DNA of 64,000 nt from Bacteroidales bacterium (GCA_041671145.1 JBAZBZ010000011.1:6255-70254), one strand, 5' to 3'; positions 13,144-26,473 are shown, counted from the first letter of the stretch. Program-made: numbers and translations. The notes: generated by a model from the sequence alone, not told the origin.

Positions 13144-14370
13144 TTATTCAATAATAATCTTACTTGTTTTTACAAACCTGCTGTTTATCAATTTTACAAA
13201 ATAAATTCCCTTTGAATAATTTGTAATATTTACAGGCATTATAAAATTATCATTACAAACAACTCTTTTAGAAAGAACAATCTGTCCGTTTAGATTTTGC
13301 ATTTCAATAAGTAAATCACTTTCAATTTTAATATCGGTTAATATTTTTACATAAAAAACATTTATACATGGATTAGGAAAAATGGAAATATTTATTTTAT
13401 CGATAAGTTTTTCTTTCACAAAATCAACACCACCATCAGTGGTTTTAAGTATTAGTCCGTTGTTTCCTACAACATATCCCGTATCGGGATTAAGGAAGAA
13501 CAATGAATTTATATGGCTTGATGTATTTGAAATCTGACTGCTCCAGCTTGCATCATTTGATGACTTGAATATAACACCGTTGTTACCGACAGTATAGCAT
13601 TTCCCGTTTTGGTAACAAAAAATACCATTCAGATTTTCATTAGTAAAATTAATTAATGAATCCCAGTCGCTGCCTGCGTTTGTGGTTTTATATATTTTCC
13701 CGTTGTTTCCTGCAATATAGCAAATACTATCGTTTATTAATGATAAACTATTTAACGTATTGGTTGTATTTAATGTGCCGGTTACCCAGAAATTTCCGCC
13801 ATCGGTAGTTTTAATAATTGTTCCGTTAATGCCAACAGCATAGCCGGTATTATTACGAAAAGAAACAGCTTTTAAAATATAAATAGAAGGGGATAAAACG
13901 TAAGTCCAATTGTTGCCGCTATCCGTGGATTTAAGAATAATTCCGTTGTCACCAACGGCAATGCCGGTGGAAGAATTAATGAAATGCAAACTGTTCAACC
14001 GGCAATTGTAAGCATTTGAAATTGTTATCCATGTACTTCCGGCATTTGTTGTTTTTAAAATTATTCCACTGTCGCCAACCATGTATCCGTTTGTTAAATC
14101 CGTAAAATAAAGAGCATTAAAATATTTATTTTGCGGAGTGGACAATGCTTTCCATGAATTTCCGCCATCGGTTGTTTTAATTACTATTCCACTGTAGTCT
14201 GTAATATATCCCGTAGAAATGTTATTAAAAAAAACAGAATTGAAATTATACAGCATCGACAGGGAAATGTCGTTCCACTGTGCATTAACGTTGCTCATTT
14301 GAAGCAATAAAAAGAATGAGAATAAATAAAGAAATTTGATTTTTTTCATGTGTATATTTTTTTCATTCAA
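13144..14370 (-). CDS. BNR/Ycf48-like beta-propeller protein with T9SS type A sorting domain
   Basis: Repeated TTDGGNSW, TTNAGSTW and STDSGNNW BNR motifs. C-terminal FPNPC...GIYFVKL CTD. Start may be the Met at 14349 (MKKIKF signal peptide). Confidence 0.7.
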   Translation of the reverse strand: MNEKNIHMKKIKFLYLFSFFLLLQMSNVNAQWNDISLSMLYNFNSVFFNNISTGYITDYSGIVIKTTDGGNSWKALSTPQNKYFNALYFTDLTNGYMVGDSGIILKTTNAGSTWITISNAYNCRLNSLHFINSSTGIAVGDNGIILKSTDSGNNWTYVLSPSIYILKAVSFRNNTGYAVGINGTIIKTTDGGNFWVTGTLNTTNTLNSLSLINDSICYIAGNNGKIYKTTNAGSDWDSLINFTNENLNGIFCYQNGKCYTVGNNGVIFKSSNDASWSSQISNTSSHINSLFFLNPDTGYVVGNNGLILKTTDGGVDFVKEKLIDKINISIFPNPCINVFYVKILTDIKIESDLLIEMQNLNGQIVLSKRVVCNDNFIMPVNITNYSKGIYFVKLINSRFVKTSKIIIE

Positions 14371-14448
14371 TGTTCAGAGTTCAATTTTTTATGCTTTACG
14401 CCTTATTTTTCTTATTACTTACGCCTAAATTCTTACGACTTTTTCGTT

Positions 14449-16506
14449 TTAATCTTGTTTATAAAATTCGCCAATAATTTTAAATTCAACTCTTCTGTTT
14501 TGTTGTCTTCCTTGCGGATTATCGGTTCCGTCAATATTCGTATTTGGAGCTAAGGGATTTGTTTTTCCACATCCTTTCGGAATTAAAAGCTTTTCACTGA
14601 TTCCCTTATCAACAAGATACTGTACGACACTATTGGCGCGATTTTGCGATAAAATCAGATTATATTGTTCGTCGCCTATACTGTCTGAATATGCCGCTAT
14701 TTCTACAATTGCATTTGGTAATTTTTTAAGAATGCTTACAAGATAATTTAATTCTTCCATCGATTCGGCTGTTAATGTTGCTTTATCAAATTCGAAATAA
14801 ATATTTTTCAGTGAATATGTTTTATTTTGTTCCGGTTTTTTCTTGAGGTTAAAATTCAACTTATAATTTTCAAGCTTGGTTAATCCTGTTGTGTTTATGC
14901 TGTATTGTTCATCAAAATATCCTTCTTCCGATACATTAAGCTGATAATTTGTATTAGGTTTTAATTTGAGAATAAATTCTTCATTGCTTAAAATCGAATC
15001 GGTTGATAAAATAGAAACCGTGTCGGTAATAACTGAGAGAGTGATTACGGAATTCGTAGGCACCTTTGAATCGGAATGTTGTTCAAATACTTTTCCTGTA
15101 ATGACAAATTCGTTATTATTAAGATATTGAAATTTATAAATATCATCACAGCATGTATTTCCTTCGTCGGTTGTATCATTTACAGCACGATTAGAACTAA
15201 AAAAACCCTCTTTGTTTTTTTCAGTGCCTGAGTTTATCAAAATATAATAAAAATCATCAACGCTTGAATTTATAGGACAACCGATATTCACAGCATCTTT
15301 CCATTTCGAAAGCGAACCATTAGAACTGAAAACATCAAGACCTCCTATGCTTTTCAATCCGTCGGAACTGAAATATAATGTTTCGTTTTTTTCGTCATAA
15401 AAAGGAGTGATTTCATTTCCGGGAGTGTTTATTTTTGTGCCGGAGTTCACCACTTCGGAATAATTATTCTTATTAGTTATGATAGAGTACCAGATATCAT
15501 AACCACCGTTTCCGCCAGGTCTGTCGGAAGAAAAATATAAAATTTCCTGAGTGCTGTCACTTGCACTAATTGAAATGTTTGGTTGTGTGGTTGAATATCC
15601 GGGATAATTAATTACATCAGGTAGTTTGACGGGCTCCTGCCATTTAAGGTTTTTAAATTCGCTTACATATAAATTACATATTGTTTTTGAATTATCATCG
15701 GTTTTACAACGTGTAAAATAAAATCTTTTTTTATCGGCTGAAAAAGTTCCATTGGCAGTATGTGCTTTTTCGCTGTTTAAAGTACTGTCAAATTCTTTTT
15801 TTAAAATATATTTTCCGTTATCATTTTTTTCGGCAAGATATAATTTTGTTTTGGGTAAACATAAATTATTATTTTCGGAACTGTTGAGCCGCAGAGATGA
15901 AAAAATAAGTTTGGTGCTGTCGAATGGTATTGCTGCGAAATCGGAATTTTCCCTGTTTATGCTTGTATCAAGATGCTCAATGATGACAGCGGATGAGTCA
16001 ATACTTGCTGCTAAAGCAAATTCACAATCTTTAATTTCTTTCTTAACGAGTTTTTTATAATACTGTGCATCCTGACCTTTATATGTTTTAGAGAACTCTG
16101 AAAAAGCATTTATTGCCGCTTTGTAATTTCCGTTATATTTCATCATTGAAGCGTATTTAAATTTTGCAAGCGGGTATGCATTGGGGTCAGAAAAGCAGGT
16201 TTCTTTATACCATATTTCCGCCTTTTTGTACTTGCGGAGATTGTAATATGACTCTGCAATGTTGTATGAAATATATGCTTTGTTGGGTTCAGTTTCGTAA
16301 ATTTTAAGATACAAGTCAACCGCAGCATTGTAATTCCCGTTAGTAAAAGCATAATCAGCAAGGCGGATAGTTTTAAATTTATTTGCTTTATTCTTTTTAT
16401 TAAAATTGAAAAGTTGTGCTGACGCATTGGAAAAGCAAAACGTTAAAACAAATAATATAAAAAATATATGTATTTTATTTTTGAGCATTTTTACAATCTT
16501 ATACAA
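14449..16506 (-). CDS. PorE-like OmpA family protein (TPR + beta-propeller + OmpA_C)
   Basis: N-terminal TPR. TolB/WD40-like repeats (FSSDR, GGYDIWYS, LYFSSDG). C-terminal OmpA motif NRRVEF. Lies directly after PorP/SprF. Confidence 0.7.
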   Translation of the reverse strand: MYKIVKMLKNKIHIFFILFVLTFCFSNASAQLFNFNKKNKANKFKTIRLADYAFTNGNYNAAVDLYLKIYETEPNKAYISYNIAESYYNLRKYKKAEIWYKETCFSDPNAYPLAKFKYASMMKYNGNYKAAINAFSEFSKTYKGQDAQYYKKLVKKEIKDCEFALAASIDSSAVIIEHLDTSINRENSDFAAIPFDSTKLIFSSLRLNSSENNNLCLPKTKLYLAEKNDNGKYILKKEFDSTLNSEKAHTANGTFSADKKRFYFTRCKTDDNSKTICNLYVSEFKNLKWQEPVKLPDVINYPGYSTTQPNISISASDSTQEILYFSSDRPGGNGGYDIWYSIITNKNNYSEVVNSGTKINTPGNEITPFYDEKNETLYFSSDGLKSIGGLDVFSSNGSLSKWKDAVNIGCPINSSVDDFYYILINSGTEKNKEGFFSSNRAVNDTTDEGNTCCDDIYKFQYLNNNEFVITGKVFEQHSDSKVPTNSVITLSVITDTVSILSTDSILSNEEFILKLKPNTNYQLNVSEEGYFDEQYSINTTGLTKLENYKLNFNLKKKPEQNKTYSLKNIYFEFDKATLTAESMEELNYLVSILKKLPNAIVEIAAYSDSIGDEQYNLILSQNRANSVVQYLVDKGISEKLLIPKGCGKTNPLAPNTNIDGTDNPQGRQQNRRVEFKIIGEFYKQD

Positions 16507-17513
16507 GGTATTGAAAATGGAATTTTATTTTTTCCTGATAAAAATTTATCGGTATAAATTATTGAAAATTCAAAACCTCCATTGAAATTAGTTGCCGGAT
16601 GCAGCTTTGAATTATTAATATCATAGCTAACGCAGACATCCCATTTTTCATATTTAATTCCTGTAATTACAATTATTGCATCTGATGTGCGATAAGCGGC
16701 GCCAATTGTAAAATTCAAAAAAACTCCGTTAGTGGTTTTAAAGATATATTCCAATCTGCTGCCAAGATTCAATTCTTTGGCTTTATTCTGCATAATAAAT
16801 AATATATCTGGTTTTATATTTATTTTTTCGTTAATGACTTTTTTCGCATTGAAGTATAATCCAAATAATAATGGCATTGGTGCAATATTTCCCGATAACG
16901 ATTCATTGGGCTTTGTTATGTGATGTACGGAAAATCCTCCGTTAATATTTAGATTACCGGGCTTTTGCAATTGGTAGGAAATCCCCGAACTCATATCGAA
17001 TTTACTGATGTTAAAATTCAAAGTGTTTTCTCCGCTTTGAATATTTGTGTTGAAATCACCAGCTAAATACTGACTTTCGAAAGATAATTTCGTAAAATCA
17101 ATTTTCTTCTGAAAAAAACCGGCTTGAAATCCTATTGATATTGAATGTTCTTTTTTTGCATCAAGTTTTTTGCAATATGATGTGCTTAACATAAACTGGA
17201 AATTACTCAAATGACCTTCACCGCTTCTGTCGTTAATAATTATCAGTCCTGCACCTATAGCATCATCTTTTAACCGGTCCTCAAGAAATTTTGAATCGAA
17301 AGAAATGGAGGAAGTTATATAAGGAACGGAAATGCTGTTCCATTGATTTCTGTAATTAGTAATAGCTCTCATGTTTCCATCAATATTTCCTGTGAGGGCT
17401 GGATTTAAAGACAGGGGAGAGTTATAAAATTGTGAAAAATGAATATCCTGACAAAAAATAAAATCAGAAACAAGCAATAAAAATAATAATAATATTTTAT
17501 TTGCATAGGGCAT
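16491..17513 (-). CDS. type IX secretion system membrane protein PorP/SprF family
   Basis: Signature QDIHFSQFYNSPLSLNPALTG. Start placed at the ATG at 17513 (MPYANKILLLF signal peptide), because the longer ORF-track N-terminus is encoded by heptamer repeats. Confidence 0.8.
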   Translation of the reverse strand: MPYANKILLLFLLLVSDFIFCQDIHFSQFYNSPLSLNPALTGNIDGNMRAITNYRNQWNSISVPYITSSISFDSKFLEDRLKDDAIGAGLIIINDRSGEGHLSNFQFMLSTSYCKKLDAKKEHSISIGFQAGFFQKKIDFTKLSFESQYLAGDFNTNIQSGENTLNFNISKFDMSSGISYQLQKPGNLNINGGFSVHHITKPNESLSGNIAPMPLLFGLYFNAKKVINEKINIKPDILFIMQNKAKELNLGSRLEYIFKTTNGVFLNFTIGAAYRTSDAIIVITGIKYEKWDVCVSYDINNSKLHPATNFNGGFEFSIIYTDKFLSGKNKIPFSIPCIRL

Positions 17514-17537
17514 AGGGCATAGGGCATGGGGCGTACA
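17503..17537. repeat. heptamer array (GCATAGG-like)x5
   Basis: gcatagg gcatagg gcatagg gcatggg gcgtaca, at the 5' end of the PorP/SprF gene. Confidence 0.85.
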
Positions 17538-17561
17538 GCTATATGTCAGCAATATTTTCTT

Positions 17562-17579
17562 AACTTTAAACATTAAACT
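17562..17579 (-). repeat. TTTAAAG-type element, partial copy
   Basis: AACTTTAAACATTAAACT, 9 nt after the stop of the giant PKD gene. Confidence 0.6.
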
Positions 17580-17587
17580 ATTTTAAT

Positions 17588-20500
17588 TTACCTTACTAAT
17601 GTTACATTTCCCTTTAATAATTTGGGAGTTGTTGAGCTTATCATTTTTGCCAGAATATAATAACTGTATGTTCCTTCTTCCTGTGGTTTACCTTTATAAG
17701 TGCCGTCCCAACCAGTATTTATATCATTTGTTTCGAATACCATTTCGCCCCATCTGTTGAAAATTCTGAACTCCAGTGATTGAATAACTCCGCTGTATAA
17801 TATTCTGAATTTATCGTTCCGTCCATCTCCATTAGGAGAAAATGCTTCGGGAACTTTTATGAAATCTTCGGAAGAAACATAAATAGTTTTGCGTATTGTA
17901 TCACTGCATCCGGAGCTGTTGAATGTTATAAGTGTAATAGTATATGTTCCGGATGTTTTATAAGTATAAATAGGATTTTTAAGAATCGAAGAATCACCAT
18001 TACCAAAATACCAAAGCCATCTGTTTCCATAAGAAGATATATTTCTGAAAATAATTGCAGGATTTGTCAAAGAAGGATTTATAGGATTGAAAGTAAAATC
18101 GGAAACAGGCCATTTGAATGCATTAATATGAATGATATTATTTTTTGTGCAAATATTATTGGCATATATTACATTCAAATTTACCATATAAGAACCTTGA
18201 TTTATAAAAGTGTGAGTTGTAATATTGCCTGTGCCGTTGTGTCCATCGCCGAAGTTCCACAGCCATGAGTTAACATATACTGATGTGTCGGAATTGTTTC
18301 CCGAAAATGTTAAACTAAAAGGAATACAGCCGGCAGTATCTTCGGGAGACAAAATAATAACGGGAGCTTTGTTAACTTTTATTGTTTTTGTTATGGTTGA
18401 TAAACAACCGATGTCGCTTAATGCGTAAAGAGAAATGTTATATTTACCCTGATTGCTGAATGAGTGAGTGGGTGATACGACAATGCTTGTATTTCCGTCT
18501 CCAAAATTCCATGTATATGAATCGGGAAAAATATGTGTTGTTGTATTTATTAGAGCCATATTTCCAGTGTTGCAAAATACAGTATCGTCAAGATTAAAAC
18601 CGGCAATAATATTTTCGAGATATATTTTTTCTGTTTTCGGAACTATATAAGTGCAACCGAGAGAATCCCGCAATAGTAAACTTGGAGTATATGTTCCGGG
18701 TTTTGAATAGAAATGTATTATGCTGTCTTTATTGCTTGATGAAGAACGATAAACAACGCTGCCATCACCAAAATCCCAAAAATAATCAATGGTGTTTTTG
18801 GTATTTGCAGCAAACAAAACCGTATCGGGGTTGCAAATTGAATCAGGATTGAAAGACAGATTTCCTACGGGTCCGCCTACCTTTACAAATGTGTTTTTTA
18901 TCAATGAGTCGGAACATCCTTCATTATTTGAAACAATTAATTTAACATCGAAATTACCAGAAGTAATAAATAGATGAGCTGCATTTTGCTGGTTTGAAAA
19001 GTTGCCATCGCCAAAATCCCAGTGCCATTGGTTTACATCGGAAGAAGACAAATCGAAAAAGATTACTGCTAATGGTGGACAATCTGTAGAAACAGGATTT
19101 CCGTTGAAGTTTGCAGTTGGCTTTTGTTTCATGAGTATATTACTCATCGTTTTTTTATGACTGCAACCCGATGAATCAGTTACTGTGAGAGAAACAGTAT
19201 ATGTTCCTATTGAGTTGTATTTATGTTTTGGATTTAAAACGCTACTTGTGGTGCCATCACCGAAATTCCATGAGTATGTTAGTTTATAACCCGAAGAAGA
19301 ATTCATAAAGAATAAAGAATCGCCATAGCAAAGGTTACTGTTTTGTATTGAAAAATTTGCTAAAGGTCTAATGTGTATGAGTTGTTTTTTTATAACAGTA
19401 TCTTCACATCCAAAGATATTTTTCACATAAAGTGTTACGGAATAATTACCGGAAATTGAATATGAATGAACAGGATTTTGAACTGTATCGAAAGGACTGC
19501 CATCGCCAAAGTCCCATCGCCATTTGGTTACCGTATAATCGGAAATTGTAGTATCTGTAAAAAAAACCGGAGCTCCGGGACATGCTGTGGTATTGCTGAC
19601 TGTAAATCCTCCTTTTATACCTGCTTTGCTAACGATTTTGATAGTGTCTGTTGATACATAAGTACAGACCAGAGTATCATTTTTTAAATCACCACAACAC
19701 AAATAATAAACGTTTACTTTCAATATGCGTTTTACAATATAAGTTCCGATGTCTTTATAGGTATGAATGGGATTTCTGTATGTGCCTTTAGTTCTCCCGT
19801 TGTGATTGCCATCATGGTTATGTTTGGGATAAATAATTGTATCGGTACCCGTAACTCTGTACGGGAAAATTATTTCGTTAATACCGGGAATATAATCCAA
19901 GAAATCATAATAAATAGAATATTGAACTTTATCATTAACAAGAGTATCACCATCACCAAATTCCCAGTAATATTGTTTTATTTCACCATAGAAACTTATA
20001 GAAGTATCTTTAAAATAAAATGTTATTCCCTGGCAGGTAGTATCTGCAGTGGGGGTAAACCCATTAACAACACTATCAATTACCAGCATATAATCCGGGT
20101 TACAATCGCCGCAGCCGCCAGTTTTTGAAGTGAAGTTTCTTGTTATAATGTTAAAACCATAACGTCCGGCTTTAGTAAAATTAATAAATGTAGTATCCAA
20201 AGGATTTAAGATGGTATTTATTCCCGTTTGTAAATCTGTCATTTTGAAATCAACTGTAGTATCAGCCCCGATGGAGCAGTCGTAAAAACCTAATTTTACG
20301 GGAGGATAGCAGGCAGCCATATCAGTAGTTGAACCTTCAGATGAATCAGGTCTGAGATGACATATTCCCGACCTGGGTTTTACATTCCATATTCTTTTAT
20401 ATATTGTATCATTACAACCGTTAAATCCTGCAACAAAAAAAATAGTATCCAAACCCATTGGTATATGTCCTGTATTGAAAACAGGATTTTGTACTTTAGA

Positions 20501-22336
20501 TGAGTCCATAAGTTTAAGTTTTAAATATGGAATGTATACAAAACTCCAGAACCAATTATTGGTATGGATTGAAGTATCGTTGAATCCTGATAGGTCCCAG
20601 GATTGATACCAATTATGAAAGCACAAAGTATCAACAGAAAATACAGAATTGAAACAATTGCCTGCTGGAGTAATTGTAAAATCAATGAAATCGGGCTTGA
20701 TTCCTGCTTTTATATAATCTGAAATTGCAAGTGTATCATTGCAACCATTAATTGTTTTTATTATTAAAGTAACTGAATATTTTCCGGTATCTGTATAAAT
20801 ATGAGTTGGGGTTGGCAGATTTGATGTTGTCCCGTCACCGAAATTCCATAAACGGAAATTTATAGCTTCAATAGAAATGCTTTTATCTGTGAACTGAACC
20901 TGTAACGGAATACAACCTTCAGTAGGAGTGGCTTCAAACTTTGCAATAGTTCTGACTATTGATATAACTTTTGTAATAGTATCAGTGCATCCGAAATTGT
21001 TTGTAACGATAAGTTTTACATTGAAGTTTTTGAACTTTACTGAGGAAGCAACAGAATATATATGAACCGGATTTTGAACTACTGAACTATCACCATCACC
21101 GAAAACCCAAAAATAACTTGAAATATTCGTGCCTGTGGAAGTATTTATAAAATTTACCTGAAACGGGGATGAACAAGAAATACTGTCAGCAGTGAAATTT
21201 GCCTTGGGTGGAATATATACTTTTGTTGTTGTATCCATACATCCATTGCCGATTGTGGATATCAGCGTTATAGTAAAAGGGGTTTTCAAATAATAATCAT
21301 GAGAAGGGTTTTGTATATTTGAGTTAAACCCATCGCTAAAACTCCAGTTCCACGATGAAGGAGACGGAGTTGATAAATCGTGAAAATTGACAATGAAAAA
21401 AGGGGCAACAGTATCGCAGTTGACGTCGTAAATGAAATCTGTTTTATAATTTTTTACAATTAAATCTTTCGGAAATGTATCTCTGCATCCTATGTTATCT
21501 GTAACAATCAAGTTGACTTTAAAAGTGTCGGCTGTATTGTAAATATGTGTCGGATTTACCGCAATAGAAATTGTACCATCGCCAAAATTCCATCGGTATG
21601 ATAGCTTGTCACCGCTTGATGAATCAATAAAAATAACATTTGCCGGAGGTGCGCAGCCAACAATGGAATCGTTAAAATGAGCTTTTGGTTTATGTACTTT
21701 TATGTAATTGTTGATAAAGAAAAAATTCTGACAACCGTTAGCATCTTTAACTATAAGATAAACGGTATAATTGCCTGCCGAGTCATAGGTATGTGTTGGG
21801 TTTTGTGAAGTTGAATAACTTCCGTCTCCGAAATTCCAGAACCAGCTTGTAATGACACTTGATTGCGGAACTGATGCATCGGTGAAATTAACCTTGAAGG
21901 GTGCACAGCCAGCAGTATCTTTTGTATTAAATTTACTTTCAGGCGATGAATATGCTCTGATATAATAAGGTTTTATTAAAGTATCACTTCCGGAAATATT
22001 AGATGCTACAAGCTTTACCGTATATGCACCCGGCGTGACATAAAATGATGTCGGATTTTGCAGAATCGAAGTGTTTCCATTACCGAAATCCCAAAACCAT
22101 GATGTGGGATTGCCTGTCGACAAATCAGTAAACTGAATGATGGCTGGTGTGCATTCAACTGTTTTGTCGGAAGAAAAAATAGCAGTTGGCTGAGCAAAAA
22201 GGAATGATGTTATAAATAGAAGAAAAAATGAAAGTATGAGTTTTATTGACTGACTGTACGAACTACTCCGGGCGTTCTTAAAAAAAATATTATGAGCTTT
22301 CATATTCATTGTTGTCAATCTGATAAAATAAAACAT
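17588..22336 (-). CDS. giant multi-PKD surface protein with T9SS type B (gliding-associated) C-terminal domain
   Basis: About 14 W.FGDG PKD signatures. C-terminal PEAFSPNGDGRNDKF...GWDGTYKG motif of the type B CTD. Start may be Met10 or Met12. Confidence 0.85.
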   Translation of the reverse strand: MFYFIRLTTMNMKAHNIFFKNARSSSYSQSIKLILSFFLLFITSFLFAQPTAIFSSDKTVECTPAIIQFTDLSTGNPTSWFWDFGNGNTSILQNPTSFYVTPGAYTVKLVASNISGSDTLIKPYYIRAYSSPESKFNTKDTAGCAPFKVNFTDASVPQSSVITSWFWNFGDGSYSTSQNPTHTYDSAGNYTVYLIVKDANGCQNFFFINNYIKVHKPKAHFNDSIVGCAPPANVIFIDSSSGDKLSYRWNFGDGTISIAVNPTHIYNTADTFKVNLIVTDNIGCRDTFPKDLIVKNYKTDFIYDVNCDTVAPFFIVNFHDLSTPSPSSWNWSFSDGFNSNIQNPSHDYYLKTPFTITLISTIGNGCMDTTTKVYIPPKANFTADSISCSSPFQVNFINTSTGTNISSYFWVFGDGDSSVVQNPVHIYSVASSVKFKNFNVKLIVTNNFGCTDTITKVISIVRTIAKFEATPTEGCIPLQVQFTDKSISIEAINFRLWNFGDGTTSNLPTPTHIYTDTGKYSVTLIIKTINGCNDTLAISDYIKAGIKPDFIDFTITPAGNCFNSVFSVDTLCFHNWYQSWDLSGFNDTSIHTNNWFWSFVYIPYLKLKLMDSSKVQNPVFNTGHIPMGLDTIFFVAGFNGCNDTIYKRIWNVKPRSGICHLRPDSSEGSTTDMAACYPPVKLGFYDCSIGADTTVDFKMTDLQTGINTILNPLDTTFINFTKAGRYGFNIITRNFTSKTGGCGDCNPDYMLVIDSVVNGFTPTADTTCQGITFYFKDTSISFYGEIKQYYWEFGDGDTLVNDKVQYSIYYDFLDYIPGINEIIFPYRVTGTDTIIYPKHNHDGNHNGRTKGTYRNPIHTYKDIGTYIVKRILKVNVYYLCCGDLKNDTLVCTYVSTDTIKIVSKAGIKGGFTVSNTTACPGAPVFFTDTTISDYTVTKWRWDFGDGSPFDTVQNPVHSYSISGNYSVTLYVKNIFGCEDTVIKKQLIHIRPLANFSIQNSNLCYGDSLFFMNSSSGYKLTYSWNFGDGTTSSVLNPKHKYNSIGTYTVSLTVTDSSGCSHKKTMSNILMKQKPTANFNGNPVSTDCPPLAVIFFDLSSSDVNQWHWDFGDGNFSNQQNAAHLFITSGNFDVKLIVSNNEGCSDSLIKNTFVKVGGPVGNLSFNPDSICNPDTVLFAANTKNTIDYFWDFGDGSVVYRSSSSNKDSIIHFYSKPGTYTPSLLLRDSLGCTYIVPKTEKIYLENIIAGFNLDDTVFCNTGNMALINTTTHIFPDSYTWNFGDGNTSIVVSPTHSFSNQGKYNISLYALSDIGCLSTITKTIKVNKAPVIILSPEDTAGCIPFSLTFSGNNSDTSVYVNSWLWNFGDGHNGTGNITTHTFINQGSYMVNLNVIYANNICTKNNIIHINAFKWPVSDFTFNPINPSLTNPAIIFRNISSYGNRWLWYFGNGDSSILKNPIYTYKTSGTYTITLITFNSSGCSDTIRKTIYVSSEDFIKVPEAFSPNGDGRNDKFRILYSGVIQSLEFRIFNRWGEMVFETNDINTGWDGTYKGKPQEEGTYSYYILAKMISSTTPKLLKGNVTLVR

Positions 22337-22349
22337 AAAATATTTTTAT

Positions 22350-22357
22350 CAAATATA
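22350..22357 (-). promoter_or_regulatory. Bacteroidota sigma-A -7 box (TATATTTG) for the giant PKD gene
   Basis: Exact TAnnTTTG on the minus strand, 13 nt upstream of the first ATG. Confidence 0.4.
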
Positions 22358-22540
22358 GTAAATTTATTGCTTTTTTTAATCTTGATTTTAAGTAATTATG
22401 ACTCTAAAGTTTATTATACGAAGAAAAGGTATTTTTGTTTGCTTTTACTAACGTGAGTTTGGAATTTTAAAAATGAGAATTAAAAAGATAATTATTTTGT
22501 TTTGGAAGATAAGTTGGTTTATTTTGAGGAGTTAGCCACA

Positions 22541-22672
22541 ACTGTGATAATTCAAAGCTGTATTACCCATTAATTTTAATTTCTCTTTTTAATAAGGCAC
22601 CATAAATATAGTAAAGTTGCCTGAGAAAAATATTTTTTTAACCGGTAGGTTTTTAGCATAGTATTACTAAAA
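22541..22672 (-). pseudogene. relic of the ECF sigma gene 5' end (promoter + leader + ATG joined to codons ~85-94)
   Basis: 22581..22672 matches 26381..26465 with about 6 mismatches. 22543..22570 matches 26098..26126 inside the sigma CDS (MVNTALNYH). The ~240 bp between these blocks is absent. Confidence 0.6.
22593..22621 (-). promoter_or_regulatory. ECF-type promoter-like motif P3 (variant -10) inside the sigma-gene relic, upstream of the giant PKD gene
   Basis: Minus strand reads GGCAAC-N15-GTGCCTTA, one T-to-C change from P1. About 256 nt upstream of the start at 22336. Confidence 0.35.
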
Positions 22673-22695
22673 TTTCAAAGTTTAGTAAAGCTAAT

Positions 22696-22723
22696 AAAAA
22701 AACCCGCAGGAATTTCCTGCAGG
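22696..22723 (-). terminator. intrinsic terminator after the PKD/T9SS type A gene
   Basis: Minus strand reads CCTGCAGGAAATTCCTGCGGG followed by TTTTTTT. 6-bp GC-rich stem plus 2 further pairs. 35 nt after the stop. Confidence 0.65.
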
Positions 22724-22757
22724 TTCTTTGCACTGACAATCGAAACAAGAAGTTTTT

Positions 22758-24017
22758 CTATTTTACAATCATTATTTTTTCTTGAATTGTATTACTTTCC
22801 AAAACAACAGAAAGAGTATAATACCCTGCCGGAAGTGTTGAAACATCAACTATGATATTTTTTGAATTAACTTTTTCATTATATACTTCCCTGCCTGTAA
22901 TATCTGTAATTTTCAGTTCTCCCTGTATTGACTGACTTAACGAAACTTCTATCCTGTTATTAGAAGGATTTGGGAAAACAGAATTCAGAGAAACTGTATT
23001 TTCTCTAATACCTGCTGCTGCATCCACAACTATAAGTTGTTGAATAAAACCTGATTCTCCTCTGTTGGCTTTGGTTGTTTCACATGTAGAACTGCTGCAT
23101 CCATTGGCATCAGTAATGGTTAAGCATATATTATAATGACCGGGAGTAGCATAAGTATGCGATGGATATTGCAGTGTGGAAGTACTTCCATCACCAAAAT
23201 CCCAAAGATAGCTGAATGGAGCAGTGCCTGTTACAGAAGGGTAGGCATACCATAATAATGAATTTGTACCACTACTATCTTGCACTAAATATATGTCTGC
23301 ATTGCAATTATTCTGTCCGTTTCCAATAACAATTGTATTGCAATACGCATCACTGCATACTACATTTTGTTGATTTGAAATTTCAGATACTGTCAGACAA
23401 ACATTAAATGTGCCGGTAGTTGAATAAATATGGCTCGGATTTTGAATATTTGATGTTGTACCATCACCAAAATCCCATACCCAATTATTTATGTTGCTGC
23501 TTGATGATGTACTGTTAAAATAATATGTGTTATTAATATTAACAGAATCCTTATAAGAAATAAATGAAGCAACACAGTTTCCGGTCGGGATGGAATCGTT
23601 TCCATTATCATTGCCAACTATCACATTACTGCAATACGTGTCACTGCATATTATATTTTGCAGATTAGAAATTTCAGATACTGTCAGACAAACATTAAAT
23701 GTGCCGGTAGTTGAATAAATATGGCTCGGATTCTGGATATTTGATGTTGTACCATCACCAAAATCCCATACCCAATTATTTATGTTGCTGCTTGATGATG
23801 TACTGTTAAAATAATATGTGTTATTAACAGAATCTTTTTGATAAATAAATGAAGCAATACAAGCGGAGTCATTTCCATTCGGGATGGAGTCATTTCCGCC
23901 TTTTAGCGTTTTCATGGAGGTTGAATTAAAATCAACCCTGTTGTTTGCGGTATAACCGCTTGCTATAATTCCTGTAAATATCAGGTTTAACAGCAACTTT
24001 AGAATAATCTTTTTCAT
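22758..24017 (-). CDS. PKD-domain protein with T9SS type A sorting domain
   Basis: Three WDFGDG PKD units, two of them near-identical. C-terminal FPNPSNNRIEV...GYYTLSV CTD. Signal peptide present. Confidence 0.8.
   Translation of the reverse strand: MKKIILKLLLNLIFTGIIASGYTANNRVDFNSTSMKTLKGGNDSIPNGNDSACIASFIYQKDSVNNTYYFNSTSSSSNINNWVWDFGDGTTSNIQNPSHIYSTTGTFNVCLTVSEISNLQNIICSDTYCSNVIVGNDNGNDSIPTGNCVASFISYKDSVNINNTYYFNSTSSSSNINNWVWDFGDGTTSNIQNPSHIYSTTGTFNVCLTVSEISNQQNVVCSDAYCNTIVIGNGQNNCNADIYLVQDSSGTNSLLWYAYPSVTGTAPFSYLWDFGDGSTSTLQYPSHTYATPGHYNICLTITDANGCSSSTCETTKANRGESGFIQQLIVVDAAAGIRENTVSLNSVFPNPSNNRIEVSLSQSIQGELKITDITGREVYNEKVNSKNIIVDVSTLPAGYYTLSVVLESNTIQEKIMIVK
23377..23827 (-). repeat. tandem in-frame duplication of a PKD module inside the type A CTD gene
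   Basis: 23377..23536 and 23668..23827 differ at 2 of 160 nt (offset 291 nt). The full unit is about 291-297 bp and spans about 23334-23900. Confidence 0.9.
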
Positions 24018-24059
24018 TTTTTTAAGTTTTTAGTGATTAATGATTTTTAATTTCATCAA

Positions 24060-24087
24060 TAAGACACTAACTTTTAAAAAGGTTGCC
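24060..24087 (-). promoter_or_regulatory. ECF-type promoter-like motif P2 upstream of the PKD/T9SS type A gene
   Basis: Minus strand reads GGCAAC-N14-GTGTCTTA. Shares the plus-strand 14-mer GTTGCCTGAGAAAA and 10-mer AATAAGACAC with P1. 42 nt upstream of the ATG at 24017. Confidence 0.45.
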
Positions 24088-24110
24088 TGAGAAAATAAAA
24101 AAAGAATTTA

Positions 24111-25775
24111 TTAGAATTTAAAATTCACACCGGCATTTAATCCTGCCGATTTTATTTTTTGATTTATCCCAAATGAATTTTTGAAGATAGAATTAAACGT
24201 ACAATTGAATGAAGGTTCCGCAACAATACTTATTTTATCATTTAACTTATAACAAAAGCCCAACCTGCATATAAAATTAAAGAAATTGCTTTGGAAAGGG
24301 AAATAATTTTTATTAAAATCAACTACTTCTTTTAAATCGGTTGAAATAATTTTGCCTTTTGAAGAAAGATAAAATGCAACTGACGCTCCCATGGTAACCC
24401 GCAATGTAAATTTGTTCTTTCCAAATTCGTATCCGATGAGCAAAGGTATTTCAAAATACCTTAATGAGTTTATTGACTTTATGTTTTCATCTTTCGATAC
24501 AGGTGAGCTAATGTGTTTCCAATTACTATCTAACATTGGTAAATTTTGATTGGTGCTATCATAGCCAATTGTATCAATTTTCAAAAAACTTTTACTTGTA
24601 TCATAACCTGTGATTTTATTTATTGAAAATTTACTTTTTGTTATATATTCAGAATAGTTAATTCCACTTTTAATAAAAAACTTTTTGATATTATATTTTG
24701 CTTCTGCTCCAAAAGAATATGATAATGCTGGTTTTTCATATTCTTTTATTTTATTTATATAATCTTTAAATTCAACAGAAGACAAAGTATTAATTGCACA
24801 AAACGGAGAACCATAAATATCAACAGAAAATTTATTTTTACGAACGTAATCTGCAGGTAATGGTGGATTATTCTGAGTGATGCTTGTTGAGTCGGATTTA
24901 ACATTAGTTAAAGTGTCTTTTTGTGATTTTTTGTTTTCTGCAGGCAAATTATTTTGAGGTTGTTGTTGATTTGAAACTTCATTTGGATTATTCGTCTTTT
25001 CATTATTTTCTTTACTTGTTATATTATTTGTGTTTGGAATATTGTTAGTAATAGTATTTGTTTTAATTATCGGTTTTTTATTACTCGTTTTCGTGGAAGC
25101 AACATTTTTTTTATTTGTACTGGAATTAGAATTTCTTGACTTGGTTTCATTATTATTTGTTTTATCAATCCCGGCAGTTGATTTAGTTTCTTTAAACATT
25201 TTCTTCTTTTCTGTATTGCCTGCAACAAATGGCTTTTCATTTGCCTTTCCTGATTGCTTTTTAATGTTTTTCTCGTTCTTTGTTGTTTTGGATTCAGTAT
25301 TTATTTCAGCAGATTCTGTTTTTGTTTTTTCTTTTCCCGCTTTTAAATTGCCTGATTTTTCGGCACTTTGCTTTCCTTCATTTCTTTCTATTTCAATATT
25401 TTCGGTATTATTACCTTTAGCATTGTTTGAAAAAGTTGCGTTTACAGCTTTTTTCTGAATTGCATCATGATTAGTTTCATTTGATGAATTTTTAATGCTG
25501 AAATTTCTTGAAATAAGAACTTTGTTATAAGCAGTATTAACATTTGATTTGGCATTATAGCTAAAATAAGTAGTTGCACAGAAAGAAAATATTATAAGAA
25601 TATCAACTATCTCAAATAAAAACAAATTTGTGCCATTTAAAAATCCTTTTGTCAAAATCTTTTTAAGGAATAAATCTTTTTTTACTCCTTTCAAAAGCCC
25701 GGAACCGGGTTCGACGCGATAGTTTTCCAAACCTCCTTTAAAAAACTTATCTATATTTTCTAAATCATTTTTCAT
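24111..25775 (-). CDS. anti-sigma-like membrane protein with low-complexity linker and C-terminal outer-membrane beta-barrel-like domain
   Basis: ATGA start/stop overlap with the ECF sigma gene. One TM segment at about residues 50-72. ~230-aa N/K/T/S-rich linker. C-terminal alternating-strand domain with RYFEIPLLIGYEFG, ending ...GVNFKF. Confidence 0.5.
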   Translation of the reverse strand: MKNDLENIDKFFKGGLENYRVEPGSGLLKGVKKDLFLKKILTKGFLNGTNLFLFEIVDILIIFSFCATTYFSYNAKSNVNTAYNKVLISRNFSIKNSSNETNHDAIQKKAVNATFSNNAKGNNTENIEIERNEGKQSAEKSGNLKAGKEKTKTESAEINTESKTTKNEKNIKKQSGKANEKPFVAGNTEKKKMFKETKSTAGIDKTNNNETKSRNSNSSTNKKNVASTKTSNKKPIIKTNTITNNIPNTNNITSKENNEKTNNPNEVSNQQQPQNNLPAENKKSQKDTLTNVKSDSTSITQNNPPLPADYVRKNKFSVDIYGSPFCAINTLSSVEFKDYINKIKEYEKPALSYSFGAEAKYNIKKFFIKSGINYSEYITKSKFSINKITGYDTSKSFLKIDTIGYDSTNQNLPMLDSNWKHISSPVSKDENIKSINSLRYFEIPLLIGYEFGKNKFTLRVTMGASVAFYLSSKGKIISTDLKEVVDFNKNYFPFQSNFFNFICRLGFCYKLNDKISIVAEPSFNCTFNSIFKNSFGINQKIKSAGLNAGVNFKF

Positions 25776-26371
25776 TTTACTATAATATTAGTTAAATGAT
25801 TTTTATTTTCAAATTTAAAGTACTCATTTACTTTTTTCTTTAAATAATTTCTTGCTTTAAATAATTGCGATTTTGATGTGCTTTCGGTTATTCCAAGCAT
25901 TTCGGCAATTTCCTTGTGTCCGTATTCTTCAAAAACATAAAGGTTAAATACGGCTCTGTAACCTTCGGGTAAACTCTGAATTATTTCGAGCAACTCTTTT
26001 TCACTTAGTATTGCTTCTTCGTAATTTTCTTCTTCCACTTCTAATTTGTCTTCAATTTCATCAATATCCTTATGGAAGAAATGCTTAAGATTATCCCTGT
26101 GATAATTCAAAGCTGTATTAACCATTATTTTCTTCATCCATCCTTCGAAAGAACCTTCAAACTTGTAATCTTTTATTTTTAAAAATATTTTCACAAAACC
26201 CTCCTGTGCAATATCTTCGGCTTCATCTTTATTTCTCGAATATCTCATGCAAATAACCAGCATAGTTGGTGCATACCTGTCGAAAAGCATGGTTTCAAAA
26301 CTACGCTTTCCAGCCATACATCCCTCAATTAAAACCTTATCGTCTAACTGTATTCTTTCTGAAATACTCAT
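25772..26371 (-). CDS. RNA polymerase ECF-type sigma-70 family factor
   Basis: Region 2 (DEAEDIAQEGFVKIF, W.KKIMVNTALNYHR) and region 4 (LPEGYRAVFNLYVFEEYGHKEIAEMLGITESTSKSQL). Confidence 0.85.
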   Translation of the reverse strand: MSISERIQLDDKVLIEGCMAGKRSFETMLFDRYAPTMLVICMRYSRNKDEAEDIAQEGFVKIFLKIKDYKFEGSFEGWMKKIMVNTALNYHRDNLKHFFHKDIDEIEDKLEVEEENYEEAILSEKELLEIIQSLPEGYRAVFNLYVFEEYGHKEIAEMLGITESTSKSQLFKARNYLKKKVNEYFKFENKNHLTNIIVK

Positions 26372-26393
26372 TAACTTATATTTCTCTTTTTAA

Positions 26394-26422
26394 TAAGACA
26401 CCATAAATATAGTAAAGTTGCC
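26394..26422 (-). promoter_or_regulatory. ECF-type promoter-like motif P1 upstream of the sigma/anti-sigma operon
   Basis: Minus strand reads GGCAAC-N15-GTGTCTTA, ending 22 nt before the sigma ATG. No TAnnTTTG box nearby. Confidence 0.5.
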
Positions 26423-26473
26423 TGAGAAAAATATTTTTTTAACTGGTAGTGTTTTAGTATGAGACAACCTCTG

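What the first reader, a model, noticed from the sequence alone, without database searches (positions are those of the whole stretch)
13144..26422. ECF sigma / anti-sigma module heading a T9SS cargo island with its own PorP/SprF and PorE-like partners
All seven genes lie on the minus strand, in this order. First an ECF sigma factor, then a translationally coupled anti-sigma-like protein. Next a PKD protein with a type A CTD, followed by a terminator. Then a 1582-aa protein with about 14 PKD domains and a type B CTD, a PorP/SprF family protein, a TPR/beta-propeller/OmpA_C protein with PorE architecture, and a BNR propeller with a type A CTD. Pairing of type B CTD cargo with an adjacent PorP/SprF-like gene is established for gliding Bacteroidota. 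What I do not know as described is placing such a cargo/adaptor module under a dedicated ECF sigma/anti-sigma pair, as the shared promoter motif suggests. This is the only accessory-looking block in the window.
Basis: partly seen in the sequence, partly recalled or inferred. Interest (0 to 1): 0.7.

Follow-up and report, generated by a model that had tools for sequence, protein, structure and literature searches.

The report
Two-membrane anti-sigma switch beside secreted-protein genes
This uncultured Bacteroidales locus places an alternative sigma factor and its two-membrane-spanning anti-sigma partner (the Dma/Das kind described in 2024) next to genes for surface proteins exported by the type IX secretion system; the sigma very probably drives only the first of them, and the large cargo/PorP/PorE-like operon is a separate, already known kind of module.

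Summary

[quoted passage not shown] It has a short N-terminal motif, one TM helix, a disordered tether of about 230 aa and an 8-stranded outer-membrane barrel. The sigma is therefore a Das-like ECF sigma.

**Promoter.** A GCAAC-N16-17-GTCTTA promoter lies upstream of the sigma and of the 419-aa PKD/type A cargo gene. It is conserved at both positions in related MAGs. In other relatives a PKD/CTD cargo gene abuts dma in one operon. 11 of 36 Dma loci carry T9SS cargo at the next position, against 2.9% background.

**Third motif copy.** The copy ahead of the 1582-aa gene is part of a 102-nt decayed duplicate of the sigma promoter plus a sigma-gene fragment. Its -10 box has a T-to-C change at a position invariant in the family. 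It lies behind a strong terminator.

**PKD(type B)-PorP-PorE-like operon.** Its orthologues occur without any sigma in other genomes, and on a different contig in the closest relative.

**Verdict.** The ECF-to-T9SS-cargo link is supported. Dedicated control of the PorP/PorE module is not. This is a new variant of a known kind.

The parts
26394..26429 (-). P_das: ECF-type promoter TTTCTCAGGCAAC-N17-GTCTTA, about 50 nt upstream of the sigma ATG (predicted autoregulation)
   Evidence: The same GCAAC..GTCT motif lies 41-51 nt upstream of the sigma ATG in L001, L004 (x2), L005, L009, L010, L015, L020, L027, L046, L059 and L064, and 82 nt upstream of the called start in L002.
25772..26371 (-). ECF sigma factor (199 aa), Das-like
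   Evidence: Sigma70_r2 and r4_2, TIGR02937 97 bits. 79-80% identical to the L001 sigma. 43-55% identical to sigmas that precede OMP_b-brl_2 anti-sigmas across Bacteroidota, including Tannerella (sigma-Dma-NigD_N-like).
24111..25775 (-). [quoted passage not shown]
   Evidence: ATGA overlap with the sigma. The C-terminal domain alone hits PF13568 at 28.3 bits, cutoff 27. AF2 gives barrel pLDDT about 90 and tether about 30. Foldseek top hits are the OmpA TM domain, NspA, OmpX and OmpW. The N-terminal motif is conserved in homologues.
24060..24094 (-). P_419: second ECF-type promoter TTTCTCAGGCAAC-N16-GTCTTA with a conserved leader
   Evidence: The promoter and 5' UTR are about 95% conserved with L001 over about 95 nt, while the downstream coding sequences are unrelated.
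22758..24017 (-). 419-aa secreted PKD protein with type A T9SS CTD; predicted direct target of the sigma
   Evidence: 3 PKD, TIGR04183 42.1 bits. Homologous PKD/CTD-A genes occupy the same slot after dma in L002/3, L009, L010, L017, L020 and L041.
22697..22729 (-). Intrinsic terminator after the 419-aa gene
   Evidence: 15-bp stem, 6 GC pairs, T-run.
22542..22659 (-). Relic of a second das copy: a 102-nt, 89% copy of P_das plus ATG (22558-22659 against 26359-26460), fused to a 35-nt, 94% copy of the sigma interior (22542-22576 against 26097-26131). The -10 box reads GCCTTA instead of GTCTTA (about 22593-22598).
   Evidence: (D8, D18). The 'TC' of the -10 box is present in every GCAAC-type family promoter I read in the list.
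17588..22336 (-). 1582-aa protein with 13 PKD stretches and a type B T9SS CTD
   Evidence: Orthologues of about 1550 aa head the same operon in L090, L091 and L092. A TAnnTTTG box at 22350-22357 lies 14 nt upstream of the ATG, but this is weak evidence because the motif is not enriched.
16491..17573 (-). PorP/SprF-family outer-membrane protein, presumed cognate anchor of the type B cargo
   Evidence: TIGR03519 195 bits, cutoff 90.6. 85%, 63% and 50% identical orthologues sit in the same operon elsewhere.
14449..16506 (-). PorE-like protein (TPR, PD40 propeller, OmpA_C peptidoglycan-binding domain); probable start at the Met at 16488
   Evidence: NF052230 328 bits, below the cutoff of 600. OmpA 70.7 bits.
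13144..14370 (-). BNR/Ycf48-like beta-propeller with type A T9SS CTD, last gene of the block
   Evidence: PSII_BNR 127 bits, TIGR04183 33.7 bits.

Best explanation
The region is two juxtaposed units, not one regulon.

**Unit A (about 26429-22697)** is a Das/Dma-type cell-envelope signalling module.
- The 554-aa anti-sigma is predicted to hold the ECF sigma at the inner membrane with its roughly 45-residue N-terminus.
- It crosses the periplasm with a disordered tether of about 230 residues and ends in an 8-stranded barrel in the outer membrane.
- By analogy with Bacteroides thetaiotaomicron Dma1/Das1, a surface or outer-membrane cue leads to proteolysis of the anti-sigma and release of the sigma.
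- The sigma then reads GCAAC-N16-17-GTCTTA promoters. One drives its own operon (positive feedback). One drives the next gene, a PKD protein with a type A CTD that the T9SS exports and attaches to the cell surface.

**Unit B (22336-13144)** is a self-contained operon of a published kind. [quoted passage not shown]
- It sits behind a strong terminator and a decayed duplicate of the sigma promoter and gene.
- That duplicate is best read as the scar of a lost second das-dma copy, as in the tandem modules of locus L004.
- Sigma control of unit B is possible but probably weak or lost.

**Shown here:** domain identities, architecture, motif conservation, synteny.
**Inferred:** sigma binding, the signal, proteolysis, promoter use.
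For: **Architecture of the anti-sigma**
- Searches match the Dma definition in PMC10927553.
- Relatives of the sigma precede OMP_b-brl_2 proteins in Parabacteroides, Tannerella (followed by a NigD_N-like gene, as in Bt das1-dma1-nigD2) and Dysgonomonas.

**Promoters**
- Three exact motif copies in the window; no shuffle gave as many matches.
- The same motif sits at a fixed distance upstream of the sigma in 13 related loci.
- It lies upstream of the gene after dma in the window, L001 and L002/3.
- P_419 and its leader are about 95% conserved with L001, although Dma itself is only 39.5% identical and the downstream coding sequences are unrelated.

**Cargo linkage**
- CTD cargo abuts or overlaps the dma stop codon (intergenic -4 to 35 nt) in 8 loci. 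TIGR04183 or TIGR04131 score above cutoff in those tested.
- 11 of 36 Dma loci have CTD cargo at the next position, against 2.9% of background ORFs, p = 4e-9.
- The association clusters in the window's sigma clade: 8 of 10 against 3 of 26.

**Independence of unit B**
- PKD-PorP-PorE-like operons stand without a sigma in L091 and L092.
- In the same MAG as L001, the operon is on another contig (L090, PorP 85% identical).
- No ECF motif is upstream in those loci.

**Relic**
-. The -10 box has GCC where every GCAAC-type family promoter I read has (G/A)TC.
- Terminator.
Against: - There are no expression data. Promoter function is inferred from motif conservation only.
- The relic promoter differs from the functional-looking one at only 11 of 102 positions. 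It keeps a perfect -35 box and spacer, so it may still fire.
- Contig L090 starts inside the PKD gene. A das/dma copy upstream of that operon in the closest relative cannot be excluded.
- I made no direct sequence comparison with Bt Dma1/Das1 or Bf Reo/EcfO, because I could not obtain those sequences. ECF21 group HMMs were not available.
- The AF2 N-terminal region has low confidence (pLDDT 45-65).
- ORF calling in the related loci, the local CTD HMMs and the NJ tree are crude.
- The enrichment tests ignore phylogenetic non-independence, and the clade was defined post hoc.
Confidence: 0.6

Rival explanations
1. The whole island from the sigma to the BNR gene is one ECF regulon. All three motif copies are active promoters, so the sigma/anti-sigma pair is a dedicated regulator of the type B cargo, its PorP/SprF adaptor and its PorE-like anchor.
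For: - There are three exact copies of TTTCTCAGGCAAC with correct spacing.
- The relic keeps its -35 box and spacer and sits upstream of the operon on the same strand.
- Type B CTD cargo directly follows das-dma in L004, L005 and L072.
- In L064 a PorP gene follows a related sigma/anti-sigma pair.
Against: - The -10 box has a T-to-C change at a position where every GCAAC-type family promoter I read has T.
- The copy is demonstrably a gene-duplication scar carrying a sigma-coding fragment.
- Orthologous operons lack both a sigma and the motif.
- No PorE-like gene lies next to any of about 80 related sigmas.
- A candidate housekeeping TAnnTTTG box lies 14 nt upstream of the ATG (weak evidence).
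Confidence: 0.25
2. The pair is a general outer-membrane stress or vesiculation regulator like Bt Dma1/Das1. Its real targets lie elsewhere in the genome, and the neighbouring T9SS cargo genes are incidental neighbours in a variable region.
For: - In Bt the key target NigD1 is unlinked.
- In many Dma loci the next gene is unrelated housekeeping: an SLT transglycosylase, an aldo-keto reductase, UvrA or an ABC ATPase.
- Cargo content after dma differs between the window and its closest relative.
Against: - The ECF promoter in front of the next gene is more conserved than the dma coding sequence.
- Cargo genes overlap the dma stop codon in several lineages.
- Cargo is enriched against background and is clade-coherent.
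- Additional unlinked targets remain entirely possible and are compatible with the best explanation.
Confidence: 0.1
3. The shared motif is not a promoter. It is a repeated or mobile sequence element, or a pure duplication remnant, with no regulatory role.
For: Two of the three copies belong to a 102-nt duplication. A palindromic repeat (22664-22690) lies beside one copy and recurs in L001.
Against: - The motif has the canonical ECF layout (AAC-type -35 box, 16-18 nt spacer, GTC-type -10 box).
- It sits at a fixed 41-51 nt from the sigma start codon in 12 divergent genomes. The spacer sequence varies while both boxes are conserved.
- P_419 shares only the boxes with P_das, not the flanks.
Confidence: 0.05

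Closest known systems
[quoted passage not shown] 2024, PMC10927553)
   Same: - The gene order is sigma then anti-sigma in one operon.
- The anti-sigma has a short N-terminal cytoplasmic segment, one TM helix, a long disordered tether and a C-terminal 8-stranded OMP_b-brl_2 barrel.
- The gene immediately after dma appears to be a sigma target (NigD2 in Bt; the 419-aa gene here).
- The family is restricted to Bacteroidota.
   Different: - The adjacent target here is a T9SS-exported PKD protein rather than a NigD-like lipoprotein.
- No link to vesiculation or oxidative stress is known for this pair.
- Dma sequence similarity to the nearest relatives is low (39% to the best homologue).
- ECF21 group membership of the sigma was not tested directly.
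PorE-PorP-PG1035 complex of Porphyromonas gingivalis, and the type B CTD / porP-like / porE-like gene clusters of Flavobacterium johnsoniae (Gorasia et al. 2022, PMC9143113, citing Kulkarni et al. 2019)
   Same: A type B CTD protein is encoded next to a PorP/SprF-family barrel and a TPR/propeller/OmpA_C PorE-like protein. The published model is that the cargo is held on the surface by PorP, which PorE tethers to peptidoglycan.
   Different: - The cargo here is a 1582-aa protein with 13 PKD stretches.
- The PorE-like protein scores far below the PorE family cutoff (328 against 600 bits), so it is a paralogue.
- A propeller with a type A CTD is a fourth gene.
- A relic sigma promoter lies upstream.
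PorXY-SigP control of T9SS genes in P. gingivalis (PMC7712824)
   Same: An ECF sigma factor is tied to the type IX secretion system.
   Different: SigP acts with a two-component system and controls T9SS machinery genes. Here the predicted targets are cargo genes, and the partner is a Dma-type anti-sigma.
FecA/FecR/FecI-type cell-surface signalling
   Same: A signal at the outer membrane is relayed to an ECF sigma through a membrane-bound anti-sigma.
   Different: The outer-membrane element and the anti-sigma are one polypeptide. There is no TonB-dependent transducer and no FecR domain.

Membership tests
[quoted passage not shown] | Encoded directly downstream of, and co-transcribed with, an ECF sigma factor | tested here: met
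   There is a 4-nt ATGA overlap with the sigma gene. The same arrangement holds in all homologue loci.
[quoted passage not shown] | Short (about 40 aa) N-terminal cytoplasmic region that binds the sigma | not testable with these tools
   A conserved N-terminal motif (MKNDLxxIDxxxKxxLxNY, D9 invariant) precedes the TM helix, and related motifs occur in 65 related loci. Binding itself, and direct similarity to Dma1(1-40), could not be tested.
[quoted passage not shown] | Single alpha-helical transmembrane segment after the N-terminal region | tested here: met
   Mean hydropathy is 2.1 for the 19-residue window starting at residue 51. AF2 predicts a helix at 52-88.
[quoted passage not shown] | Long intrinsically disordered periplasmic linker | tested here: met
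   Residues 76-311 have pLDDT about 30 and no secondary structure. The sequence is K/N/S/T-rich and low in complexity.
[quoted passage not shown] | C-terminal 8-stranded outer-membrane beta-barrel (OMP_b-brl_2) | tested here: met
   PF13568 scores 28.3 bits (cutoff 27) on the isolated domain. AF2 gives about 8 long strands at pLDDT about 90. Foldseek top hits are the OmpA TM domain (TMt 0.64-0.65), NspA, OmpX, OmpW and Ail.
ECF21 / Das-type sigma factors | Two-domain ECF sigma (sigma2 and sigma4 only) | tested here: met
   Sigma70_r2 and Sigma70_r4_2; TIGR02937 97.3 bits, cutoff 42.9.
ECF21 / Das-type sigma factors | Assignment to group ECF21 by the ECF classification HMMs | not testable with these tools
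   The ECF group models are not in the libraries. Indirect support: the sigma is 43-55% identical to sigmas that precede OMP_b-brl_2 anti-sigmas in Tannerella, Parabacteroides, Dysgonomonas and Rikenella. The literature states that ECF21 sigmas are encoded next to Dma members.
T9SS type A CTD cargo | C-terminal TIGR04183/PF18962 domain above cutoff, plus an N-terminal signal peptide | tested here: met
   419-aa protein: 42.1 bits. 408-aa protein: 33.7 bits. The cutoff is 23. Hydrophobic N-termini are visible in both.
T9SS type B CTD cargo | C-terminal TIGR04131/PF13585 domain above cutoff, with an adjacent PorP/SprF-like gene | tested here: met
   TIGR04131 57.2 bits (cutoff 35). CHU_C 66.6 bits (cutoff 27). 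The PorP/SprF gene starts 15 nt downstream.
PorP/SprF family | TIGR03519 / PF11751 above cutoff | tested here: met
   195.2 bits (cutoff 90.55) and 154.8 bits (cutoff 22.3).
PorE (T9SS component) | NF052230 above its curated cutoff | tested here: not met
   328 bits against a cutoff of 600. The rival model CHU_0125 scores 296 against 620. This is a PorE-like paralogue.
PorE (T9SS component) | TPR + beta-propeller + OmpA_C-like peptidoglycan-binding architecture; lipoprotein | tested here: inconclusive
   TPR_16, PD40 and OmpA are all present. The N-terminus MLKNKIHIFFILFVLTFCFSNASAQ has a signal peptide, but the lipobox is unclear.

The most novel reading that the evidence does not exclude
A whole clade of Das-like ECF sigma factors is a T9SS-coupled surface-signalling system.
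- In the window's branch, the Dma barrel in the outer membrane gates expression of co-operonic T9SS adhesin-like cargo.
- In the sister branch, the anti-sigma has swapped its own barrel for PKD domains and a type B T9SS sorting domain. In one case it sits next to a PorP/SprF gene.
- In that branch the anti-sigma itself would be threaded through or docked on the T9SS, which would report secretion or surface status to the cytoplasm.
- On this reading the window's relic second promoter would be the remnant of such a module wired to the PorP/PorE-anchored cargo.
Probability: 0.25. Interest if true: 0.8.

Novelty: new variant of a known kind. Interest (0 to 1): 0.5.

Why it matters
Dma-type anti-sigma factors were described only in 2024, in gut Bacteroides. 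Their signals, and their regulons outside that genus, are unknown.

This locus and its relatives give a concrete, testable output for one clade: T9SS-exported PKD surface proteins, either transcribed from a conserved ECF promoter or placed in the same operon. That would link envelope sensing to remodelling of the secreted surface proteome in uncultured Bacteroidales.

The type B cargo/PorP/PorE-like operon is an independent module of an already published kind. Its apparent promoter sharing is a duplication scar, which is a useful caution against inferring regulons from repeated motifs.

Tried and rejected
- **Full-length Pfam and NCBIfam scans of the 554-aa protein** gave nothing. Only the isolated C-terminal domain hit OMP_b-brl_2.
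I redid it with A3.
- **An Omp85/POTRA gene as a conserved partner of das-dma:** phmmer found it only in L001. Rejected as a general partner.
- **The recurring +2 genes of 320-346 aa after dma as a conserved family:** Pfam showed unrelated functions (SLT, aldo-keto reductase; a similar-sized ABC ATPase lies at +3 in L026). Rejected.
- **A PorP or PorE next to related sigmas:** none, except PorP in L064.
- **The ECF motif upstream of orthologous PKD-PorP-PorE operons:** none found.
- **Sigma-70 hexamer scan:** no enrichment, 77 found against 72 expected. It is not informative for Bacteroidota.
- **TAnnTTTG scan:** not enriched in this AT-rich DNA, so the box upstream of the 1582-aa gene is only a weak hint.
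- **Supplements of the Dma paper** (to get the Dma1/Reo sequences) are not held.
- **Literature searches** for a link between Dma or ECF21 and T9SS, or for an anti-sigma with CHU_C, found nothing relevant.
- **The second PorP paralogue P0035,** listed with a longest contig of the same length as the window's own proteins (76,820 bases), is not inside the window.

Full report
**Observation**

The seven minus-strand ORFs exist at the stated coordinates.
- The 199-aa protein (25772-26371) is an ECF sigma: Sigma70_r2 and r4_2, TIGR02937 97 bits.
- The 554-aa ORF (24111-25775) overlaps the sigma stop codon by ATGA.
- The 419-aa protein has three PKD stretches and a type A CTD (TIGR04183 42.1 bits, cutoff 23).
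- The 1582-aa protein has 13 PKD_4 stretches and a type B CTD (TIGR04131 57.2 bits, cutoff 35).
- The 360-aa protein is PorP/SprF (TIGR03519 195 bits).
- The 685-aa protein has TPR, PD40 and OmpA domains. It scores 328 bits against a cutoff of 600 for PorE, so it is PorE-like rather than PorE.
- The 408-aa protein is a BNR/Ycf48-like propeller with a type A CTD.
- A 15-bp-stem terminator follows the 419-aa gene at 22729-22697.
- TTTCTCAGGCAAC occurs exactly three times on the minus strand. No shuffle gave as many matches.

**The anti-sigma**

The full-length 554-aa protein hits no family. Its last 253 residues alone match PF13568 OMP_b-brl_2 (28.3 bits, cutoff 27).

An AlphaFold2 model built on nine homologues gives the following:
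- N-terminal helices;
- a TM helix at 52-88;
- no structure and pLDDT about 30 for residues 76-311;
- a confident barrel of about 8 strands at 315-553 (pLDDT about 90).

Foldseek against the PDB returns the 8-stranded OmpA TM domain (TMt 0.64-0.65), NspA, OmpX, OmpW and Ail.

[quoted passage not shown] 2024 (PMC10927553). In that family the N-terminal 40 residues bind the ECF21 sigma Das1, and the protein has one TM helix, a disordered tether and an 8-stranded OMP_b-brl_2 barrel in the outer membrane.

The N-terminal motif (MKNDLxxIDxxxKxxLxNY) is conserved among homologues.

**Relatives**

Homologues of the anti-sigma are rare; only 9 were found. The closest locus, L001 (Bacteroidales MAG GCA_029004185.1), is syntenic with the window through these genes: a C25-like CTD protein, PdxJ, a CBS protein, an Omp85/POTRA protein, the sigma (80% identical) and Dma (39.5% identical). 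It carries different genes after dma.

A scan of 185,579 species genomes with a sigma alignment returned 80 loci at 40-55% identity, all from Bacteroidota apart from one MAG labelled Chlorobiota and one labelled only 'bacterium'.

Local analysis of these loci and Pfam checks show three things:
- About 36 loci have a Dma-type protein after the sigma. These include Parabacteroides, Dysgonomonas and Tannerella. In Tannerella a NigD_N-like gene follows, exactly as nigD2 follows dma1 in B. thetaiotaomicron.
- Pedobacter-type loci have a split version: a short anti-sigma followed by a separate OMP_b-brl_2 protein.
- Eight loci have an anti-sigma whose C-terminus is PKD plus a type B T9SS CTD.

**Promoters**

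The window motif is GCAAC-N16-17-GTCTTA, an ECF-like layout.
- The same boxes lie 41-51 nt upstream of the sigma ATG in L001, L004 (twice), L005, L009, L010, L015, L020, L027, L046, L059 and L064, and 82 nt upstream of the called start in L002. The spacer sequences vary. This indicates an autoregulated promoter.
- The motif also precedes the gene after dma in the window, L001 and L002/3.
- The window's P_419 and its leader are about 95% identical to L001 over about 95 nt, while the coding sequences behind them are unrelated (a PKD cargo against a 307-aa lipoprotein). The promoter is therefore under stronger constraint than dma itself.

**Cargo linkage**

- In L009, L010, L017, L020, L041, L072, L005 and L004 a CTD-bearing gene abuts or overlaps the dma stop codon (intergenic -4 to 35 nt), forming a das-dma-cargo operon.
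- Most of these are PKD proteins homologous to the window's 419-aa protein. TIGR04183 or TIGR04131 score above cutoff.
- 11 of 36 Dma loci have CTD cargo at the next position, against 2.9% of 785 background ORFs (binomial p = 4e-9).
- In a crude NJ tree the association is concentrated in the window's clade and its neighbours: 8 of 10 against 3 of 26.
- These tests ignore phylogenetic non-independence.

**The third motif copy and unit B**

The copy ahead of the 1582-aa gene belongs to a 102-nt, 89%-identical duplicate of the sigma promoter and start codon (22558-22659 against 26359-26460). It is fused to a 35-nt, 94% copy of the sigma interior (22542-22576 against 26097-26131). It is therefore the scar of a second das gene with an internal deletion. 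L004 shows the intact version of such a tandem arrangement, with its second module led by a type B cargo.

The relic's -10 box reads GCCTTA. Every GCAAC-type family promoter I read in the list has (G/A)TC at that point.

Orthologues of the PorP gene (85%, 63% and 50% identical) sit in the same operon elsewhere: a PKD protein of about 1550 aa, PorP and a PorE-like protein (cut short at the contig end in L092), followed where the contig extends by further genes. No sigma is nearby in L091 and L092. In the same MAG as L001 the operon is on a different contig (L090). No ECF motif lies upstream.

phmmer found no PorE-like gene in any of the 88 loci held at that point, and no PorP gene other than the one in L064.

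**Literature**

- The type B CTD / PorP-like / PorE-like triad is published. A PorE-PorP-PG1035 complex has been described, and six F. johnsoniae porP-like genes lie next to porE-like genes (PMC9143113).
- An ECF sigma tied to the T9SS is known only as SigP with PorXY, which controls machinery genes (PMC7712824).
- I found no paper that connects Dma or ECF21 with T9SS cargo, or that describes an anti-sigma with a CHU_C domain.

**Verdict**

- The pair is a Das/Dma-type module whose adjacent PKD/type A cargo gene is very likely its target. Dma-T9SS cargo coupling is a recurrent, apparently undescribed feature of one clade.
- The PorP/PorE-like cargo operon is an independent unit of a known kind. 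It is separated from the pair by a terminator and a decayed promoter relic, and its control by this sigma is unproven and, on sequence grounds, doubtful.
- Novelty: new variant of a known kind.
- Interest: 0.5.

Noticed in passing
L015:2349-4040, L018:8292-9629, L046:10592-11926, L051:9415-10761, L059:10512-11492, L064:10554-11918, L065:9147-10439, L078:3788-5065: In eight related loci the protein encoded right after the Das-like sigma has the anti-sigma N-terminal motif and a TM helix, then (in seven of the eight) PKD domain(s), and in all eight a type B T9SS sorting domain (CHU_C) instead of an outer-membrane barrel. CHU_C scores above the Pfam cutoff in L015, L059, L065 and L018, and just below it in the other four. 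These sigmas form the sister clade of the window's sigma in a crude tree. I found no description of such anti-sigma factors in the literature.
   Followed up: partly
L064:12114-13103: A PorP/SprF gene (PF11751, 198 bits) directly follows the anti-sigma that carries a type B CTD. This is the cognate-adaptor arrangement known for type B cargo, here applied to an anti-sigma factor.
   Followed up: partly
L026:10512-12152 (also L025, L028, L016, L034, L037, L039, L076): This is a split Dma arrangement in Pedobacter and relatives. An anti-sigma of about 250 aa (N-terminal motif and TM helix) is followed by a separate protein of about 270 aa that matches OMP_b-brl_2 (44 bits in L026).
   Followed up: partly
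window 22664-22690: The palindrome CTTTACTAAACTTTGAAATTTTAGTAA lies just upstream of the relic promoter and occurs once in the window. Near-identical palindromes lie upstream of the sigma promoter and after the 307-aa gene in L001. The relic therefore resembles the L001-type sigma upstream region more than the window's own.
   Followed up: partly
window 24018-24059: The leader downstream of P_419 (ATTGATGAAATTAAAAATCATTAATCACTAA...) is almost identical in L001 although the genes behind it differ. It can form a short hairpin (ATTGATGA / TCATTAAT). Its function is unknown.
   Followed up: no
window 23336-23536 and 23627-23827: A 201-nt direct repeat, 95% identical with a 291-nt period, lies inside the 419-aa gene. 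It indicates a recent duplication of one PKD unit with its linker.
   Followed up: no
window 26474-27922: A 482-aa Omp85/POTRA-like gene ends 102 nt upstream of the sigma gene, in the window and in L001 (70% identical). It was not found next to other das-dma pairs. A dedicated insertase for the Dma barrel was considered, but I found no support for it beyond these two close relatives.
   Followed up: partly
window 29793-32522: A 909-aa ORF is 79% identical (over the 665 aa compared) to the L001 gene annotated Propeptide_C25 / Peptidase_C25 / Por_Secre_tail. It is a gingipain-family protease-like T9SS cargo, syntenic in both genomes a few genes upstream of the sigma.
   Followed up: no
L004:3191-17598: Two complete das-dma-cargo modules stand in tandem in a Bacteroidales UBA6244 contig. 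The second is led by a type B CTD protein, and an ECF-like motif precedes its last cargo gene. This is the likely intact counterpart of the window's relic arrangement.
   Followed up: partly
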